Positions 1,714 through 60,440 of a stretch of DNA of 64,000 nucleotides are shown piece after piece. Made by a program: the position numbers and the translations under genes. Positions within the stretch are counted from its first letter, which is position 1; every line of letters begins with the position of its first letter. Under the pieces are notes generated by a model. The model saw only the letters and a list, made by a program, of their open reading frames with translations, was not told the origin of the DNA and ran no database searches. This stretch comes from Vicinamibacterales bacterium (lineage in GTDB: Bacteria; Acidobacteriota; Vicinamibacteria; Vicinamibacterales; UBA2999), in the NCBI GenBank assembly GCA_035538015.1, contig DATLLC010000042.1, positions 6,450-70,449 on the forward strand. Reading direction: 5' to 3'.

Positions 1714-2430
1714 ATGGCCCCCCGCGCTCACTGGCAATCCCTCCTGGAAGTGGTCCTCTGTTCCGGTTTCCCGACGCAGCTCGTCCTGACCGGGGTGGCC
1801 CTCATGGCGGGGCTTCGGCCGATGACTGGTGGGGGAGGATTATCCCTGCCATTCGTGGCCGCGGTCTCGGCGGCCGACACCGTCCTGCTCATTGCGCTCG
1901 TCCTCTGGTTTCTGCACATTCGAGACGAGTCACCCCAAGCGCTCTTCCTTGGTGTTCGCCCGATTCTGGCCGAGATGCGGCTCGGATTGCTCCTCGCGCC
2001 CCTCGTTGTGATCTTCATGAGCGGCGCGATCTTCTGGCTCCGCCAACTGCTGCCGAACCTGCACACGGTGCCTGAGAATCCGTTCGAGGCGCTCGCGCGC
2101 TCGCCGGCCGGCGCCTTTGCGCTGCTGCTGGTGGCCATGGTCGCCGGCGGCATCCGCGAAGAGATGCAGCGGGCCTTCCTGCTGCACCGCTTCCGCACCG
2201 ACCTCGGGGGTGCCGCCATCGGGCTGCTGCTCACGAGCGCGGCGTTCGGCATCGGCCACCTCGTGCAGGGATGGGACGCAGTCCTGGTCACCGCGGCGCT
2301 CGGTGCCTTCTGGGGTGCGCTGTTTCTCGCACGCGGCAGCATCCTCGCCGCCGTTGCCAGTCACGCGCTGGCCAACGGGACGCAGGTGCTGATCGCGTTT
2401 TTGCAGAGACCTGAGGTGTTGGGGTCTTGA
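1714..2430 (+). CDS. CPBP family intramembrane glutamic endopeptidase (CAAX protease-like)
   Basis: 238 aa polytopic membrane protein with the motifs REEMQRAFLLHRF, FGIGHL and SHALANG typical of the CPBP/Abi family. Confidence 0.85.
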   Translation: MAPRAHWQSLLEVVLCSGFPTQLVLTGVALMAGLRPMTGGGGLSLPFVAAVSAADTVLLIALVLWFLHIRDESPQALFLGVRPILAEMRLGLLLAPLVVIFMSGAIFWLRQLLPNLHTVPENPFEALARSPAGAFALLLVAMVAGGIREEMQRAFLLHRFRTDLGGAAIGLLLTSAAFGIGHLVQGWDAVLVTAALGAFWGALFLARGSILAAVASHALANGTQVLIAFLQRPEVLGS

Positions 2431-2479
2431 GGTCTTGGGGGCTTGGGTCCTGGGCTTGGGGCTTGGGTGGGGCATGGGT
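2415..2479. repeat. G-rich degenerate heptamer array (unit GGKCTTG, about 9 units) spanning the CPBP stop codon to the next gene's stop
   Basis: Read directly: ggtgttg gggtcttg aggtcttg ggggcttg ggtcctg ggcttg gggcttg ggtgg ggcatg ggtca. There are eight runs of 3 or more G within 58 nt. Confidence 0.75.
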
Positions 2480-19408: not shown

Positions 19409-19440
19409 AGGGCCCACAGAGACAAGGGCCCACAGAGACA
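19409..19440. repeat. Perfect tandem duplication of a 16-bp unit (AGGGCCCACAGAGACA x2) upstream of hslV
   Basis: Read directly: 19409-19424 and 19425-19440 are identical. The repeat lies 35-66 nt upstream of the hslV ATG, and each unit contains the GGGCCC palindrome. Confidence 0.9.
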
Positions 19441-45380: not shown

Positions 45381-45450
45381 ATTGATGATTGATGATTGGC
45401 GATTGATGATTGATTGGCGATTGGGCGATTGCGCCATTGCATTCAATTGC
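45381..45450. repeat. Degenerate tandem heptamer array, unit NNGATTG (about 9 units), one orientation only
   Basis: Read directly: attg atgattg atgattg gcgattg atgattg attg gcgattg ggcgattg cgccattg... It begins 17 nt after the radical-SAM stop codon. Confidence 0.8.
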
Positions 45451-48297: not shown

Positions 48298-48308
48298 GTG
48301 AATGGCCT

Positions 48309-48487
48309 CCATTGGTGATTGATGATTGGTGATTGACGATTCATTGAATGATTGGGCGATTGAACCATCGGGCCATTCGTGATTGGCGCCGCCACCCGCC
48401 CAATCGCTCAATCGAATGAAGCATTGCGCCGATCGTCAATCAGCCGATGAATCGCCAGATCATCAATCGCCAATCGTCAATGGTCAA
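48309..48487. repeat. Imperfect palindrome (about 180 bp) built from NNGATTG heptamers (left arm) and CAATCNN heptamers (right arm)
   Basis: Read directly. The arms align in heptad register (GATTG cores pair, variable dinucleotides mostly do not). The element fills the whole spacer between the convergent ADOP and asparaginase genes. Confidence 0.8.
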
Positions 48488-48497
48488 GCGCGCGGGC

Positions 48498-53684: not shown

Positions 53685-54260
53685 ATGCACCGCTCGCGCG
53701 TGGGTGTGGCGATGGTGGTCGTGTGGATGTGTGTCGTAGCAACCGTTCGCGCCCAGGATGACGTGCAAGCGAAGATGCAGGAATGGAACAAGGCGCTCGG
53801 CGTCGAGTGCACGCACTGCCACCTCGACGGTCAGTGGAACCTGGCCTACCTTCCCACCTTCGACCTCGCGTATCGCATGCAGCGGATGGTCAACGAGCTG
53901 AATGCCGGGCCGCTGAAGCCGTACGGCGGCATCACCTGCAATACCTGTCATCAGGGGACGCTCACACCGCCCAAGATCACGCCGGAACAATGGCAGCGGG
54001 ACGCCAAGCGCTACGAGGCCGTGTTCGGCGGTGACAGCTCGCTGGCCCTGCAGATGGGTGTGTTCACGGCCTCGCTCGGCGTGGGCTGTTTCCACTGCCA
54101 CGACCCGAGCGACTGGGGCTCCGACGACAATCCGATGAAGGCCGTCGGGCGGCGCATGCGCGGGATGGTGGGCGGCATCAACAAGCATTTCGCCGGCGTC
54201 AAAAATCCCGAGATTGGGTGCATGGCCTGCCATCAGGGGAAGCCCAAACCGGGACGGTAA
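53685..54260 (+). CDS. Tetrahaem cytochrome c, photosynthetic-reaction-centre cytochrome subunit-like
   Basis: 191 aa from MHRSRVGVAMVVVWMCVVATVRA (signal). It has four CXXCH motifs (CTHCH, CNTCH, CFHCH, CMACH), each preceded by a Met-containing helix (MQEW, MQRM, LQMG, MRGM), as in the PF02276-type fold. Confidence 0.85.
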   Translation: MHRSRVGVAMVVVWMCVVATVRAQDDVQAKMQEWNKALGVECTHCHLDGQWNLAYLPTFDLAYRMQRMVNELNAGPLKPYGGITCNTCHQGTLTPPKITPEQWQRDAKRYEAVFGGDSSLALQMGVFTASLGVGCFHCHDPSDWGSDDNPMKAVGRRMRGMVGGINKHFAGVKNPEIGCMACHQGKPKPGR

Positions 54261-54328
54261 CACCGCCACGAGCCGGAACGAAACAGAGCGCGAATCAGCG
54301 ATCGGAAGGGATCCGCGGGAGGCAATGT

Positions 54329-55048
54329 ATGAACAGACGGCAACTACTGACTGGCGTGCTGGCTGCCCCGATGGCGCTGGGACTCGACCTCGAGGCACAA
54401 GAGGGCGGCGCCCCGGATCCATCGCTCTACATCCCGAAGGCGCACCTGGTCGAGGATCGCGCGTTTCTGCACGACTTCATGGACGAATACGCATTCGTGG
54501 ACCTGGTGACGACCAGCCCGACGTTGCGGATTACTCACATCCCCACGTTCCTGGAGCGAGCCAGCGGACGCTTCGGGACGGTGTTCGGGCACATCTCCGC
54601 CCAGAACCCGCAGCGCGCGGCGTTGGACGGCACCCACCCGGCCGTGATCGTCTTCCGCGGGCCGCATGGCTACATCTCGCCCGCCTGGTACGGCAAGAAG
54701 GACGTGGTCCCAACCTGGAACTTCGCGGTGGTGCACGTGTCGGGCCGGCCGAAGATGATCGACGGGCCGGACGCGACCCGCGCGCTGCTCGCGCGTCTGA
54801 TCCGGAAGTTCGAGACCAAGTCGGGCACGAGCTACGACTTCGACTCGCTGCCCGCCGACTACGTAGCCGGCATGATGAAGGGCATCGTGCCGTTCTCGAT
54901 GGAGATCGACGCCATCGAAGGCAAGTTCAAGCTTGGTCAGGAGCGCCAGGCCGCGGACCGCGACGGCGTGGTCCAACACCTGCAGACCGCCAAGCCGCAC
55001 GAGCGCACGCTACGGGAGTTGACCGAGGCCTTCTACGCAAGGAAGTAG
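54329..55048 (+). CDS. PaiB-family FMN-binding protein with twin-arginine (Tat) signal peptide
   Basis: ATG at 54329 with a GGGAGG RBS. MNRRQLLTGVLAAPMALGLDLEAQ is a Tat-type signal. The body (ISPAWYGKKDVVPTWNFAVVHVSG...IEGKFKLGQ) is typical of the PaiB/FMN_bind_2 family. Confidence 0.85.
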   Translation: MNRRQLLTGVLAAPMALGLDLEAQEGGAPDPSLYIPKAHLVEDRAFLHDFMDEYAFVDLVTTSPTLRITHIPTFLERASGRFGTVFGHISAQNPQRAALDGTHPAVIVFRGPHGYISPAWYGKKDVVPTWNFAVVHVSGRPKMIDGPDATRALLARLIRKFETKSGTSYDFDSLPADYVAGMMKGIVPFSMEIDAIEGKFKLGQERQAADRDGVVQHLQTAKPHERTLRELTEAFYARK

Positions 55049-55127
55049 AGCCAGACTCTGGGTGACCGACCGAAGAGGCGCAATCGGCCAACCAGCGACC
55101 CGTCGCAGCTAGCGGCCCGTAACCGCT

Positions 55128-55322
55128 GAATCGGTATCTGATGATCTCTTGATCGGGTGACGTTGTGATGGATCTGGCGATCGGATGATCTGGTGATCGG
55201 ACGATCATCTGACGGATCTATCTGGGCCGGATAGATCGAGAGATAGATCAGGTCGATCACCAGATCACCAGAGCGATCACCAGATCACCACCTCGAGACA
55301 TCAACAGATATCGTTATCTGGA
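55128..55322. repeat. Imperfect palindrome (about 195 bp) built from NNGATC(G/T) heptamers, centre hairpin GATCTATC-N7-GATAGATC
   Basis: Read directly. Left arm: ...gatctggcgatcggatgatctggtgatcggacgatc... Right arm: ...gatcaccagatcaccagagcgatcaccagatcacca... It lies between the convergent PaiB-like and CoA-ligase genes. Confidence 0.75.
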
Positions 55323-55330
55323 CCACTAGA

Positions 55331-56902
55331 CTAGGCCCTCAGCTTGAAACGCTGGGTCTTGCCCGTGGCGGTCTTCGGCAGGTCGGCCACGAAGTGAATC
55401 CAGCGCGGGCGCTTGTAATCGGCCAGCCGCTCGCGCACGAACTGCTGCAGTTCCGATGCGAGCGACGGCGTGGGCTGGGCGCCGGGGTTGAGGACGACGA
55501 ATGCCTGGGGCTTGACGAGACGATCCTGATCGAGGTGTCCGACCACGGCACACTCGCGCACAGCAGGATGCCCGGTCAGAGCGTTCTCGACCTCCACCGG
55601 GCTCACCCAGATGCCGCCGACCTTCAGCATGTCGTCGGCGCGGCCCGCATGCCAGTAGTACCCGTCGGCATCCTGGTGGTACTTGTCGCCGGTTCGAATC
55701 CAGTGGCCCTCGATCGTCGCCTTGGTGCGTTCATGCTGGTTCCAGTAGCACGCGCAGATCGAGTCGCCCTTGATCAGCAGGTTTCCCACCTCGCCGGTCG
55801 GCACCGGCGCGCCGGCCTCATCGACCAGACGCGCTTCGTAACCGGGCACGATCTCCCCGCTCGATCCCGGCCGGGCACGGCCGGCCCGATTGGCGATGAA
55901 AGTGTGCAGGACCTCGGTCGAGCCGATGCCGTCGAGAATCTCGATGCCGAAGCGCAGCTTGAAGCGATCGAAGAGGGCCGCCGGCAAGGCCTCGCCGGCC
56001 GACAGGGCCAGCCGTACACTCGACAGGTCGAAGTCACGCGCGCCGCCTGACTCGTGCGCGAGCAGCATGCCGTAGTTGGTCGGCACGGAGAACAGCAAAG
56101 TCGGGCAATGACGCTCGATGATCTCGTAGATGGCCGTGGCCGTCGCCGGCCCAGGCCACAGGATGCTCGTGCCACCGACCGACAGCGGGAAGTACAAGGC
56201 ATTGCCCAGACCGTAGGCGAAGAACAGCTTGGCCACGCTGAAGCACCGGTCGCGCTCCGAGATCTCGAGGACGTGCCTGGCGTAGGCCGAGGCGCAAACG
56301 ACCATGTCGTGCTGGAGGTGCACGCAGCCCTTGGGCGGCCCGGTGCTGCCGGACGAATAGAGCCAGAACGCCGCATCGTCCCTCGAGGTTGGCGCCGGGT
56401 CACCGGCGTTCCCGGACTGGGCGATGACCTCGTCCAGCGCAAGCGCGCCGTCGCCAGGTGCCCCGTCCGCAACCAGCACGTGTTCGATGCCACGGCGTTG
56501 CGCGAGCGGAATCGAGTGCCACACCGGCAGCAGCGCCGCGCTCACCACCGCCACGCGGGCCCTGCAGTCGTGCAGGACGTACGCCACGTCGGCGGCCTTC
56601 CACATCGTGTTCACCGGCACCGGCACGGCGCCAGCACGGATGGCGCCCCAGAACCCATAGAAGAACGCCGGGCTGTCGAGGAGCCAGAGCAGGACGCGCT
56701 CTTCCCGCCGCATGCCGAAGCCAGCCTGGAGCGCCTCTCCGACGGCAGCGACGCGCGCGGCCAGTGCGGCGTAGGTGACGCGCTCGGCGCCGCACTCGAC
56801 GGCGATGCGATCGCCACGTCCTTCTCGCAGGTGGCGGTCGACGAAGTAATCAGCGGCGTTGAAGGTCGCCGGAAGCTCCGGCGCCGACCGATCGTCCAAC
56901 AC
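55331..56902 (-). CDS. Benzoate-CoA ligase family AMP-forming acyl-CoA synthetase
   Basis: 523 aa. FNAADYFVDRHLREGRGDRIA N-terminus, AMP-binding motif LYSSGSTGPPKG, and C-terminal KTATGKTQRFKLR. Confidence 0.9.
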   Translation of the reverse strand: MLDDRSAPELPATFNAADYFVDRHLREGRGDRIAVECGAERVTYAALAARVAAVGEALQAGFGMRREERVLLWLLDSPAFFYGFWGAIRAGAVPVPVNTMWKAADVAYVLHDCRARVAVVSAALLPVWHSIPLAQRRGIEHVLVADGAPGDGALALDEVIAQSGNAGDPAPTSRDDAAFWLYSSGSTGPPKGCVHLQHDMVVCASAYARHVLEISERDRCFSVAKLFFAYGLGNALYFPLSVGGTSILWPGPATATAIYEIIERHCPTLLFSVPTNYGMLLAHESGGARDFDLSSVRLALSAGEALPAALFDRFKLRFGIEILDGIGSTEVLHTFIANRAGRARPGSSGEIVPGYEARLVDEAGAPVPTGEVGNLLIKGDSICACYWNQHERTKATIEGHWIRTGDKYHQDADGYYWHAGRADDMLKVGGIWVSPVEVENALTGHPAVRECAVVGHLDQDRLVKPQAFVVLNPGAQPTPSLASELQQFVRERLADYKRPRWIHFVADLPKTATGKTQRFKLRA

Positions 56903-60387: not shown

Positions 60388-60390
60388 CCG

Positions 60391-60440
60391 TCCGCACCCG
60401 CCCGCACCTGCCGGCACCTGTCCGCACCTGTCCGCACCTA
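60391..60440. repeat. Five tandem degenerate decamers (TCCGCACCYG-type) abutting or overlapping the stop codon of the CBM9/DUF5916 gene
   Basis: Read directly: tccgcacccg cccgcacctg ccggcacctg tccgcacctg tccgcaccta. Confidence 0.8.

What the first reader, a model, noticed from the sequence alone, without database searches (positions are those of the whole stretch)
55128..55322. About 195-bp palindrome of GATC-containing heptamers between the PaiB-like and CoA-ligase genes
The architecture is the same as the 48.3-kb element but the core is GATC(G/T): GGTGATCG, GATGATCT, GGCGATCG on the left and GATCACCA, GATCACCAGAGC on the right. The centre holds a perfect hairpin, GATCTATC-tgggccg-GATAGATC, plus a second GATAGATC copy.

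I count at least 15 GATC tetranucleotides in under 200 bp by eye. If the organism has a Dam-like or GATC-specific restriction-modification system or a SeqA/MutH-like reader, this would be an extreme methylation-site cluster. The heptamer differs from the GATTG family by one or two positions, which suggests a diverged member of the same superfamily.
Basis: seen in the sequence. Interest (0 to 1): 0.55.

Follow-up and report, generated by a model that had tools for sequence, protein, structure and literature searches.

The report
Mirror octamer-repeat hairpin between convergent genes
The GATC-rich stretch is a real 218-bp imperfect palindrome whose arms are tandem copies of an 8-base unit and its reverse complement. 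It is one example of fast-evolving "mirror repeat" hairpins that sit at many gene junctions in Acidobacteriota and in at least one phage contig, and nothing points to a methylation hub.

Summary
There are 14 GATC, not 15 or more, in 55143-55286, and the period is 8 nt, not 7.

The element (about 55113-55330) lies between the stop codons of a PaiB-like gene and an AMP-binding CoA-ligase gene. It folds as a long imperfect hairpin on both strands (z about -6).

The spacer is hypervariable:
- Relatives at about 81-88% DNA identity have the two stops 3 nt apart.
- Strains 96-99% identical carry four alleles: empty, a non-repetitive palindrome A, an intermediate A', and the GATC form B.
- Shared blocks between alleles indicate B arose in place by tandem duplications in both arms.

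Mirror arrays recur in other Acidobacteriota contigs and IMG/VR contigs, one of them a confirmed phage. They use the same GGTGATC/GATCACC unit, mixed GATC/GATTG units, or unrelated "private" units. In 29 of 33 scorable pairs the G-rich arm comes first.

GATC is not enriched genome-wide. It is lost in some alleles and interchanges with GATTG. No methyltransferase gene is in the window.

Best reading: a gene-junction RNA hairpin acting as 3'-end barrier or insulator, with GATC a by-product. The function is inferred, not shown. Precedents exist in Xanthomonas and Geobacter. I rate it a new variant of a known, unexplained kind.

The parts
54218..55048 (+). PaiB-like (FMN_bind_2) gene. Homologues are 239 aa, so the true start is probably near 54329. 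Stop codon TAG at 55046-55048.
   Evidence: Pfam E = 7.5e-46; homologue lengths.
55049..55108 (.). Proximal spacer segment ('layer 1') with small local hairpins. It is the only spacer sequence present in the 'empty' allele L048.
   Evidence: Alignment of alleles; folds. It differs at 12 of 64 positions from L048, versus 3.8% at third codon positions.
55109..55112 (.). Left-boundary CTAG. It corresponds to the stop-codon CTAG of the empty allele.
   Evidence: CTAG is rare in the window (16 occurrences, Markov ratio 0.30).
55113..55136 (.). Outer left arm CGGCCCGTAACCGCTGAATCGGTA, shared with alleles A (L046) and A' (L065).
55137..55214 (.). Left (5') arm with G>C. It consists of tandem 8-nt units (TGGYGATC / GGAYGATC) with a 16-nt super-period, plus a diverged 44-nt internal duplication. 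It holds 7 GATC.
   Evidence: Direct-repeat families D1 and D2; Tandem Repeats Finder; autocorrelation and GC skew +0.30.
55215..55237 (.). Central perfect hairpin GATCTATC-tgggccg-GATAGATC, the apex of the palindrome.
   Evidence: Inverted pairs I11 and I15; minimum-free-energy structures.
55242..55249 (.). Second GATAGATC copy.
   Evidence: Direct-repeat family D7.
55254..55290 (.). Right (3') arm with C>G: (GATCACCA)2-GAGC-(GATCACCA)2, a 20-nt tandem duplication. It holds 4 GATC.
   Evidence: Direct-repeat family D3; Tandem Repeats Finder; GC skew -0.22. 23 of 24 nt are identical to a single-copy block in allele A'.
55291..55325 (.). Outer right arm CCTCGAGACATCAACAGATATCGTTATCTGGACCA. It is an imperfect complement of 55113-55160 and homologous to the right ends of A and A'.
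   Evidence: Inverted pair I1.
55326..55334 (.). Right boundary CTAGACTAG. CTA at 55331-55333 is the TAG stop codon of the CoA-ligase gene.
55331..56902 (-). AMP-binding (acyl-CoA ligase-type) gene, convergent with the PaiB-like gene.
   Evidence: Pfam E = 2.4e-77 and 2.8e-22.
48298..48497 (.). Sister element: a mirror array of (TGATTGR)n and (YCAATCR)n between the convergent ADOP-type permease and asparaginase genes.
   Evidence: A 41-nt right-arm indel separates it from the sister strain L065.
45381..45450 (.). Essentially one-armed GATTG heptamer array after the stop of a radical-SAM/SPASM gene.
   Evidence: Nearly unchanged in L065: two substitutions just upstream of the array and a 3-nt indel just after it.

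Best explanation
The element is one member of a lineage-wide class of gene-junction palindromes in Acidobacteriota. These also occur in IMG/VR contigs of similar G+C, one of which is a confirmed phage. In each element, one arm is a tandem array of a 7-8-nt unit and the other arm is an array of its reverse complement.

SHOWN:
- It lies exactly between two convergent stop codons.
- It is absent from relatives at about 81-88% DNA identity.
- Within a 96-99% identical strain cluster it exists as four alleles: empty, A, A' and B.
- B shares homologous blocks with the non-repetitive palindromes A and A', and differs from them mainly by tandem duplications: a 44-nt duplication and a 16-nt super-unit on the left, and a 20-nt duplication on the right.
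- The sister 48.3-kb element changes arm length by a 41-nt slippage-type indel between 9-nt direct repeats.
- The same architecture recurs with the same unit and with unrelated units at many gene junctions elsewhere.

INFERRED mechanism:
- A simple palindromic spacer at the gene junction is lengthened by slipped-strand tandem duplication within each arm. This is the fastest mutational route to a longer stem.
- Variants that keep or extend arm-to-arm complementarity persist.
- When either convergent gene is transcribed, the RNA folds into a long imperfect hairpin that starts at or near the stop codon.
- That hairpin acts as a U-tract-less pause/termination site, a 3'-exonuclease barrier or a transcript insulator.
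- The G-rich arm emerges first, so the C-rich arm is paired as soon as it is made. This would deny Rho a C-rich loading site.
- The GATC density is a by-product of the amplified unit. GATC is self-complementary and CGATCG-type seeds were already present in A'. It is not the selected feature.
For: Anatomy and fold:
- Sequence, repeats and folds. The hairpin z-score is about -6 on both strands, and 71% of the bases in 55113-55330 are paired in the + strand structure.

Gene context:
-.

Turnover at the junction:
- L043 and L044 have TAGgacCTA with no spacer.
- L048 is the empty allele, L046 carries A, and window/L017/L042/L047 carry B. L065 carries A'.

Block homology between A' and B:
- 23 of 24 nt in the right-arm block, 38 identical positions across a 52-column alignment of the right ends, and 27 of 34 in the left block (z about 3 against shuffles).

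Slippage in a sister element:
- A 41-nt indel between ATCGTCAAT repeats in the 48.3-kb element.

Other unit arrays at the same orthologous junction:
- L001/L005, L002/L018, L003, L019, L050.

Same GGTGATC/GATCACC mirror arrays elsewhere:
- L051, L061, L062, L063, and L067, L071, L072, L079.

Private units at many junctions:
- About seven of 17 called gaps in L063 hold a mirror pair, and several more hold one-armed arrays.
- Seven consecutive junctions from terminase to beyond the head-tail adaptor in phage contig L076 carry arrays. This argues against sequence-specific protein recognition and, given phage packaging limits, for some function.

Orientation:
- The G-rich arm is first in 13 of 13 pairs in the first set and 16 of 20 scorable pairs in the second.

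Constraint:
- Among B carriers, substitution density in B is 7 of 654 sites against 103 of 3406 at flanking third codon positions (Fisher p = 0.003).
- Arrays show no copy-number change at about 1-3.5% divergence: B in L017, L042 and L047, and L063 versus L064.
Against: - No transcript, 3'-end or structure-probing data exist. The RNA-level function is inference only.
- There is no U-tract or canonical terminator.
- Relatives manage with no spacer at all, so the element is dispensable.
- Three of the five substitutions at paired positions among B alleles break pairs, and no compensatory change is seen.
- Allele A' folds no better than shuffled sequence (z -1.1 and -0.8).
- The low substitution density in B is confounded by a local low-diversity tract. 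L017 has no SNP between 54865 and 55901, and the three pairwise comparisons are not independent.
- The arms are not exact mirrors. GGAY units on the left have no complement on the right, so selection may act on units rather than on pairing.
- In phage operons, termination at every junction seems counterproductive. The class may therefore have a different or additional role, such as RNA processing or translational coupling.
Confidence: 0.5

Rival explanations
1. Non-functional mutational by-product. Slipped-strand duplication of 7-8-nt units (too long for mismatch repair to correct), together with intrastrand template switching in palindromes, generates and symmetrises arrays. The arrays are merely tolerated in spacers.
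For: - The element is dispensable.
- Four radically different alleles exist in one strain cluster.
- Arms expand independently: a 41-nt indel in the sister element and perfect GGAACTG repeats only in the left arm of L050.
- No compensatory substitutions are seen.
- One-armed arrays exist at window 2412-2478, 45381-45450 and 60390-60439.
Against: - Arrays occupy seven consecutive junctions of a size-constrained phage structural operon.
- There is a strong orientation bias, 29 of 33.
- Substitution density inside B is reduced.
- Copy number is stable at about 1-3.5% divergence.
Confidence: 0.2
2. DNA-level element. The arrays are cooperative binding sites for a DNA-binding protein, comparable to ribbon-helix-helix (RHH) operators or centromeres or to a nucleoid protein. 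Alternatively they extrude a cruciform that organises or insulates the chromosome.
For: - Tandem 7-8-bp units in direct and inverted orientation are the binding format of RHH proteins: omega heptads WATCACW, MetJ 8-bp metboxes and ParG ACTC-N4 boxes (from my memory). The unit GATCACC contains ATCAC.
- The same unit recurs in several unrelated contigs.
- Unit identity is kept better than arm complementarity.
- Geobacter metallireducens paired tandem sites were interpreted as binding sites for global regulators (PMC2700814).
- The DNA-parameter fold is stable at -61 kcal/mol.
Against: - Ten or more unrelated units occur within 20 kb of one genome, and again in one phage. This would need one protein per junction.
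- No RHH, ParA or regulator gene lies next to the element.
- The recurrence of GGTGATC was found by searching for that unit, so it reflects ascertainment.
Confidence: 0.1
3. Non-autonomous transposable element (MITE), for example derived from IS630/Tc1-mariner or IS5, that inserted at a CTAG or TA target overlapping the stop codon.
For: - An empty site exists in L048.
- CTAG is present at both borders, and CTAG is rare in the window.
- Allele A has terminal inverted repeats matching at 24 of 27 positions.
- G+C is lower than in the genome (0.50-0.56 against 0.67).
Against: - CTAG is self-complementary and is part of the palindrome, so it cannot be called a target-site duplication.
- The ends are not found anywhere else in the window or in about 400 kb of related loci.
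- Copies of the GATC family elsewhere do not share these ends.
- The A, A', B series indicates evolution in place.
- The analogous TA-duplication reconstruction for the 48.3-kb element is refuted by the conserved ...FDTY terminus of asparaginase.
- No transposase is present in the window.
Confidence: 0.05
4. GATC methylation hub, the first reader's idea: a cluster read by a Dam-dependent system (SeqA/MutH-like) or targeted by a GATC restriction-modification system.
For: GATC density is about ten times the window background.
Against: - There is no genome-wide GATC bias (ratio 0.92).
- GATCs are lost in sister alleles.
- GATC interchanges with GATTG.
- The period is 8 bp.
- The architecture is shared with units that contain no GATC.
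- No methyltransferase, SeqA or MutH gene is in the window. SeqA and MutH are, to my knowledge, confined to some Gammaproteobacteria.
Confidence: 0.03
5. Scar of break repair by a repeat-adding polymerase. Both 3' ends of a double-strand break are extended with a G-rich short repeat (telomere-healing-like or reiterative synthesis) and then joined, which gives head-to-head arrays.
For: - The G-rich strand runs 5' to 3' towards the centre on both sides in 29 of 33 pairs.
- Telomere-like G-rich one-armed arrays exist, for example TTGGGGC-type at 2412-2478.
Against: - B is explained by duplications of pre-existing A'-like sequence.
- Exceptions to the orientation rule exist.
- No candidate enzyme has been identified.
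- The arms differ in their variant units.
Confidence: 0.03

Closest known systems
Paired 'convergent' GGGAATC heptamer arrays of Xanthomonas campestris and X. axonopodis (Rehm et al. 2015, PMC4692102)
   Same: - Intergenic tandem arrays of a 7-nt unit.
- 70-75 cases per genome in which one array on the + strand and one on the - strand lie close together in convergent orientation, able to form stem-loops or cruciforms.
- Array length varies between species.
- Most arrays are transcribed.
- Function is unknown.
- The G-rich-arm-first arrangement appears to be the same. This is my reading of 'convergent'.
   Different: - Xanthomonas uses a single G-tract unit genome-wide, and it was studied as a G-quadruplex former.
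- Here the unit is an 8-nt GATC-containing sequence with no G-tract.
- Each junction tends to have its own unit.
- The class here is also found in a phage contig.
Geobacter metallireducens class 1-3 'putative global regulator binding sites' (Aklujkar et al. 2009, PMC2700814)
   Same: Pairs of sites on opposite strands at variable distance. Each site consists of 3-5 tandem octa-, nona- or heptanucleotide repeats (GTTGCTYN, TCTCCGTS[Y], MTYCTGA) and is intergenic.
   Different: - There are only three or four unit classes, each in 8-24 pairs per genome.
- They were interpreted as protein (IHF/HU-type) binding sites.
- Here the units are largely private to each junction, which argues for a structure-based role.
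Cyanobacterial STRR heptamers and Beggiatoaceae TAACTGA direct repeats (PMC4679880)
   Same: Tandem hepta-type units confined to intergenic DNA, often abutting start or stop codons. They are lineage-specific and unexplained.
   Different: Those are overwhelmingly one-directional arrays (169 direct sets against 1 inverted set in the Beggiatoa genome). The present element is a mirror pair that forms a long hairpin.
REP/BIME/REPIN elements and MITEs (for example Correia elements)
   Same: Extragenic palindromic DNA, often between convergent genes, that folds into hairpins in transcripts and can stabilise 3' ends or terminate transcription. They show presence/absence polymorphism.
   Different: - REPs and MITEs are dispersed copies of one conserved sequence, mobilised by a transposase such as a RAYT (REP-associated tyrosine transposase).
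- This element has no other copy of its ends.
- It is built from 8-nt tandem units.
- It appears to have evolved in place.
RHH-protein operator and centromere arrays: omega heptads WATCACW, MetJ metboxes, ParG ACTC-N4 boxes (from my memory)
   Same: Contiguous 7-8-bp units in direct and inverted orientation. The unit GATCACC contains the ATCAC core of the omega heptad.
   Different: - Those arrays occur once or a few times per replicon, next to their cognate gene.
- No such gene is present here.
- Unit diversity across junctions is too high.
Dam/SeqA GATC clusters (for example at oriC in E. coli)
   Same: Local GATC over-density.
   Different: - The period is 8 bp.
- The GATCs are not conserved.
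- There is no genome-wide GATC signal.
- The location is a convergent 3' spacer in a housekeeping region, not an origin.

Membership tests
Paired (mirror) intergenic hepta-/octanucleotide tandem arrays (Xanthomonas GGGAATC pairs; G. metallireducens class 1-3 sites) | Two tandem arrays of a 7-9-nt unit, one on each strand, in close proximity | tested here: met
   The left arm carries TGGYGATC/GGAYGATC units and the right arm GATCACCA units, about 40 nt apart.
Paired (mirror) intergenic hepta-/octanucleotide tandem arrays | Intergenic location | tested here: met
   It lies between the stop codons at 55048 and 55331.
Paired (mirror) intergenic hepta-/octanucleotide tandem arrays | Convergent orientation, with the G-rich array 5' of the centre on both strands | tested here: met
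   GC skew is +0.30 in the left arm and -0.22 in the right arm. The class-wide count is 29 of 33.
Paired (mirror) intergenic hepta-/octanucleotide tandem arrays | One or a few unit sequences reused many times in the same genome | tested here: inconclusive
   Only one GATC-family element and two GATTG-family elements occur in 64 kb. Other arrays in the window and in L063 and L076 use different units. A whole genome was not available.
Paired (mirror) intergenic hepta-/octanucleotide tandem arrays | G-quadruplex-forming G-tracts (the Xanthomonas type) | tested here: not met
   The repeat units (TGGYGATC, GGAYGATC, GATCACCA) contain no run of three or more G.
Dam/SeqA/MutH-type GATC methylation cluster | Local GATC density far above background | tested here: met
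   14 GATC in 195 bp against a window mean of 1.48.
Dam/SeqA/MutH-type GATC methylation cluster | GATC sites conserved among alleles and relatives | tested here: not met
   GATC becomes GACC and GGTC in L047 and GGTC in L042. GATTG units substitute for GATC units in L061.
Dam/SeqA/MutH-type GATC methylation cluster | Sites phased on one helical face (the requirement is recalled from memory) | tested here: not met
   The dominant spacing is 8 bp.
Dam/SeqA/MutH-type GATC methylation cluster | dam, seqA or mutH genes present, and 6mA at GATC | not testable with these tools
   No such gene is among the roughly 50 ORFs of the window. No whole genome or methylome was available.
MITE (IS630/Tc1-mariner- or IS5-derived) | Terminal inverted repeats | tested here: met
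   The outer arms pair. In allele A the ends match at 24 of 27 positions.
MITE (IS630/Tc1-mariner- or IS5-derived) | Target-site duplication | tested here: inconclusive
   CTAG flanks both sides and the empty allele has a single CTAG. Because CTAG is its own reverse complement, it may simply be the end of the palindrome.
MITE (IS630/Tc1-mariner- or IS5-derived) | Multiple dispersed copies sharing the same ends | tested here: not met
   No other copy of the end was found in the window, with up to 3 mismatches allowed. A shorter 9-nt core of the end, searched exactly, was seen in allelic loci plus a few isolated matches of chance size in unrelated loci. Other GATC-family arrays have different ends.
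REP/BIME/REPIN | A conserved 20-40-nt palindromic unit present in many copies, with a RAYT transposase | tested here: not met
   The arms are 8-nt tandem units and the element is single-copy in the available sequence. No transposase is in the window.
Rho-independent (intrinsic) terminator | G+C-rich stem-loop followed by a U-tract | tested here: not met
   The scan found 0 terminator-like sites in 54900-55500. No T-run flanks the stem.
RHH-type operator/centromere array | Adjacent cognate RHH or ParA gene, and few sites per replicon | tested here: not met
   The neighbours are metabolic genes. Mirror arrays with other units occur at many junctions.
Known RNA families (Rfam 15) | Match at the family's gathering score | tested here: not met
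   No hit at gathering score in the window. The only hit is a sub-threshold generic-hairpin match to plant MIR3444 (22.8 bits against a gathering score of 80).

The most novel reading that the evidence does not exclude
Acidobacteriota and their phages may punctuate gene junctions with a dedicated hairpin system.
- Each junction grows its own 'private' mirror array of 7-8-nt units by tandem duplication.
- This gives long, register-tolerant RNA hairpins that do not cross-pair or recombine with other junctions.
- These hairpins would replace canonical U-tract terminators. They would define transcript 3' ends, insulate neighbouring genes, or couple stop and start codons.
- The G-rich-arm-first polarity would be selected to keep the C-rich arm from serving as a Rho loading site.
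- In the GATC family the G-rich unit GGUGAUC is also complementary to the 16S rRNA 3' tail GAUCACC (from my memory), so this family could in addition hold terminating ribosomes.
Probability: 0.25. Interest if true: 0.8.

Novelty: new variant of a known kind. Interest (0 to 1): 0.55.

Why it matters
If the inferred role holds, these mirror arrays would be a major and largely undescribed layer of gene-boundary signalling in a dominant soil phylum and in its phages. They would also give a clear example of how functional RNA hairpins can evolve rapidly through tandem duplication rather than point mutation.

In practical terms:
- They explain contig breaks (L045 ends at the palindrome's left edge) and spurious 'PDH[PQ]ITRS' repeat ORFs in metagenome protein catalogues.
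- They caution against reading dense GATC clusters as methylation signals.
- They offer hypervariable, strain-resolving markers: four alleles within 96-99% identity.

Even if the arrays are non-functional, the strong orientation rule demands a mechanistic explanation.

Tried and rejected
1. IS630/Tc1-type TA or CTAG insertion.
- For the sister 48.3-kb element I reconstructed an ancestral shared CTAG, which predicted an asparaginase ending ...FDT*. About 65 homologues all keep the terminal aromatic residue, and 47 end ...DTY. The reconstruction is rejected.
- For the finding itself, the CTAG...CTAG borders cannot be told apart from palindrome ends.
- The ends have no other copies.

2. Known RNA families. 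None at gathering score. The only hit is a sub-threshold plant miRNA-precursor match typical of any long hairpin.

3. tRNA or tmRNA genes. None.

4. Canonical promoters or terminators in the spacer. None.

5. Similarity to plasmids or phage records. None. An exact 25-base right-arm pattern in viral contigs also gave no hit.

6. Compensatory substitutions among B alleles. Not seen; 3 of 5 changes at paired positions break pairs.

7. Hypermutable contingency locus. Rejected for B, because unit number is identical in four strains up to about 3.4% diverged, and in L063 versus L064.

8. Purine-rich-first as a universal rule. It holds for most pairs but not for the GATC family. G>C-first also has 4 exceptions, mostly tight hairpins with a 1-3-nt loop.

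9. A single conserved protein-binding motif across units (for example RGTGAY). The resemblance is too loose to claim.
Full report
**1. What is there**

The window has 67% G+C. Its closest relatives are Acidobacteriota/Vicinamibacterales genomes assembled from metagenomes. The genes are housekeeping: topA, dprA, xerC-like, hslVU, L21/L27, obg, tmk, acetyl-CoA carboxylase parts and TamB/BamA-like. No transposase or DNA methyltransferase is present.

The finding lies in the 282-bp spacer between two convergent genes. One is a PaiB-type FMN_bind_2 gene with its stop at 55046-55048. The other is an AMP-binding CoA-ligase gene with its stop codon CTA at 55331-55333.

The spacer G+C drops to 0.50-0.56, and GC skew switches from positive to negative at its centre.

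**2. Checking the observation**

- There are 14 GATC at 55143-55286, spaced mostly 8 nt apart. Other 195-bp windows average 1.48, with a maximum of 6.
- Dinucleotide-preserving shuffles of the region already give 8.2 +/- 1.9. Much of the excess over local composition is the repeated unit itself.
- Autocorrelation peaks at 8 and 16 nt in the left arm and at 8 and 20 nt in the right arm. The unit is an octamer, not a heptamer.
- The left arm is [TGGYGATC GGAYGATC]x2, preceded by a diverged 44-nt duplicate. The right arm is [(GATCACCA)2 GAGC]-type, a 20-nt duplication.
- The apex is the perfect hairpin GATCTATC-N7-GATAGATC at 55215-55237, followed by a second GATAGATC.
- The spacer folds into one long imperfect hairpin on either strand: -122 and -130 kcal/mol, z -5.75 and -5.62.
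- With DNA parameters the same fold has -61 kcal/mol.
- No Rfam family, tRNA, promoter-like or terminator-like site is present.

**3. Comparative anatomy of this junction**

Orthologous junctions were recovered through the PaiB protein.

- Relatives at about 81-88% DNA identity (L043, L044) have TAGgacCTA, with the two stops 3 nt apart and no spacer.
- More distant relatives carry different short-unit arrays at the same place:
  - TAGGC-plus-hairpin units and their mirror image in L002/L018.
  - GAGCGAGGCCT-type units in L001/L005.
  - AGCCCAG in L003.
  - GGAACTAGGAAGC in L019.
  - A textbook (GGAACTG)n-CTAG-(TTCCTAA)n palindrome in L050.
- Within the strain cluster that is 96-99% identical to the window, there are four alleles:
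  - L048 is 'empty'. It has only the first 59 nt and runs ...GTCGCAG-CTAG-GCCC.
  - L046 carries A, a palindrome of roughly 160 bp that is not built of repeated units.
  - L065 carries A', a mosaic of A-like and B-like blocks.
  - The window, L017, L042 and L047 carry B, the GATC form.
- A' and B share several blocks:
  - A 24-nt right-arm block, 23 of 24 nt identical.
  - The right end, 38 identical positions across a 52-column alignment.
  - A left block, 27 of 34 identical, z about 3 against shuffles.
- B's extra length is accounted for by tandem duplications in each arm. I therefore conclude that B evolved in place from an A/A'-like palindromic spacer.
- The CTAG at both borders cannot be scored as a target-site duplication. 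CTAG is self-complementary and extends the terminal inverted repeat. Whether the empty allele is ancestral or a palindrome deletion between the CTAGs is unresolved.

**4. Tempo**

- Unit number in B is identical in four strains up to about 3.4% diverged.
- L017 has 43 SNPs in 6.8 kb and none in the spacer.
- Pooled over the three B-carrying comparisons, substitution density in B is 7 of 654. At flanking third codon positions it is 103 of 3406 (Fisher p = 0.003).
- The comparisons share branches, and the element sits in a local low-diversity tract. This is compatible with constraint but does not prove it.
- Three of five substitutions at paired positions break pairs.
- Two GATCs are lost in L047 and one is gained in L042.
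- In the sister 48.3-kb element, strain L065 lacks 41 nt (about six heptamers) of one arm between 9-nt direct repeats. Arms therefore change length independently by slippage.

**5. The element belongs to a class**

The window holds further short-unit arrays at gene 3' ends:
- GATTG/CAATC mirror pair at 48298-48497.
- GATTG, one arm, at 45381-45450.
- TTGGGGC-like at 2412-2478.
- (GTCCGCACCT)5 at 60390-60439.

Other copies of the GATC family were found in two ways.

First, I searched with the translation of (GATCACCA)n. This found spurious 'PDH[PQ]ITRS' ORFs in many metagenome contigs. Their DNA shows the same architecture:
- L051 lies between divergent genes.
- L061 has GATC and GATTG units mixed.
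- L062 and L063 carry further examples.

Second, a pattern scan of IMG/VR gave 14 more loci. Four of them are full mirror pairs.

In L063, about seven of 17 called spacers hold a mirror pair with its own unit, and several more hold one-armed arrays. Units include TAGAAGC, GGAGTCA, AGTGACA, AGGTGTC, ACGCAAAG, CACAGAG, CACCAAGG and GATCGGGT. This holds whatever the gene orientation.

L076 is a genuine phage structural module, with terminase, portal, protease and head-tail adaptor. Seven consecutive gene junctions carry such a hairpin. Several of them run from a few bases after the stop codon to just before the next Shine-Dalgarno sequence or start codon.

Across automatically detected pairs, the arm 5' of the centre has G>C in 13 of 13 pairs in the first set. 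This includes B. In the second set it does so in 16 of 20 scorable pairs. The exceptions are mostly tight hairpins with 1-3-nt loops.

**6. Interpretation**

The diversity of units within one genome argues against sequence-specific protein or transposase recognition. It favours a role, or a generating process, that depends on self-complementarity.

Presence at consecutive junctions of a packaging-limited phage operon argues for function. So do the orientation bias and the reduced substitution density.

My best explanation (confidence about 0.5) is as follows.
- The element is a gene-junction RNA hairpin.
- It grew by tandem duplication within the arms of a simpler palindrome.
- At this convergent junction it serves as a U-tract-less barrier or insulator for both transcripts.
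- The G-rich-first polarity would leave no exposed C-rich RNA for Rho.

All functional steps are inferred. No expression data were available.

The main rival (0.2) is a tolerated mutational by-product. DNA-level protein binding or cruciform formation (0.1), a MITE (0.05), a methylation hub (0.03) and a break-healing scar (0.03) are less likely, for the reasons given under each rival.

**7.

The kinship with the GATTG element is supported.

The methylation-cluster idea is not supported:
- GATC is at expectation genome-wide (ratio 0.92). CTAG, by contrast, is strongly avoided (ratio 0.30).
- The GATCs are not conserved.
- The 8-bp phasing is unsuited to readers that need sites on the same helical face.
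- Most members of the class have no GATC.

Methylation itself remains untested.

**8. Relation to what is known**

- Paired 'convergent' heptamer arrays were described in Xanthomonas: GGGAATC, 70-75 pairs per genome, transcribed, function unknown (PMC4692102).
- Paired tandem octa-, nona- and heptanucleotide sites were described in Geobacter metallireducens and proposed as regulator-binding sites (PMC2700814).
- One-directional heptamer arrays are known from cyanobacteria and Beggiatoaceae (PMC4679880).
- I found no description for Acidobacteriota, for the GGTGATC unit, for junction-private units or for phage operons.

I therefore rate it a new variant of a known but unexplained kind.

Noticed in passing
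window 48298-48497: A GATTG/CAATC mirror heptamer array lies between the convergent ADOP-type permease and asparaginase genes. The sister strain L065 lacks 41 nt (about six units) of the right arm between ATCGTCAAT direct repeats. A TAGGTG direct repeat flanks the element, but it is not a target duplication, because the asparaginase C-terminus ...FDTY is conserved.
   Followed up: yes
window 45381-45450: A GATTG heptamer array of about 9 units follows a radical-SAM/SPASM gene, with only a vestigial right arm (CAATTG/CAATGC). It is nearly unchanged in L065: two substitutions just upstream of the array and a 3-nt indel just after it.
   Followed up: partly
window 2412-2478: A G/T-rich array (TGAGGTCT / TTGGGGC units, telomere-like) fills the whole 48-bp spacer between a CAAX-protease-like gene and a convergent ORF. 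There is no mirror arm.
   Followed up: no
window 60390-60439: (GTCCGCACCT)x5 directly abuts the CTAG stop of the DUF5916 gene. The same spacer also has GTTCTCG-type units like those in L001.
   Followed up: no
window, whole: CTAG is strongly under-represented (16 occurrences, Markov ratio 0.30), and several of the 16 are stop codons at array borders. TTAA occurs only once.
   Followed up: partly
L063 6677-15242: In this 26-kb Acidobacteriota-like contig, about seven of 17 called intergenic spacers carry a mirror array with a private unit, and several more carry one-armed arrays. In spacers between same-strand genes the arms typically begin within about 10 nt of the stop codon and end about 10-30 nt before the next start codon. 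This could bring stop and start codons together.
   Followed up: partly
L076 4500-12660: This IMG/VR contig is a phage structural module (terminase, portal, protease, head-tail adaptor). Tandem-unit hairpins occupy seven consecutive gene junctions. One example is TGA-acag-(GTCGTTG...)(CCAACGA...)-tGGTGGAGGcaaaaATG.
   Followed up: partly
window 55137-55290; L051, L061, L071: The G-rich unit GGUGAUC is complementary to GAUCACC in the conserved 3' tail of 16S rRNA, and is part of the extended Shine-Dalgarno complement AGGAGGUGAUC. The 16S sequence is from my memory. The C-rich arm therefore mimics the rRNA tail. This was not tested.
   Followed up: no
L017 versus window 54865-55901: A 1036-bp SNP-free tract is centred on the element, in a strain that otherwise differs at 1 site per 159 bp. 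This suggests recent recombination or hitch-hiking of the B allele.
   Followed up: partly
L001 and L005 (same MAG, two contigs): The PaiB/CoA-ligase junction region is nearly identical on two contigs of one MAG. This is either a real duplication or an assembly or binning redundancy.
   Followed up: no
L045 (contig end at ...ACCGCTGAA): A short-read contig ends at the left edge of the palindrome. These elements probably fragment metagenome assemblies and generate spurious ORFs (PDH[PQ]ITRS repeats) in protein catalogues.
   Followed up: partly
window 19409-19440: A perfect 2 x 16-nt direct repeat (AGGGCCCACAGAGACA) lies in the spacer upstream of hslV, on the + strand just past its start codon.
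   Followed up: no
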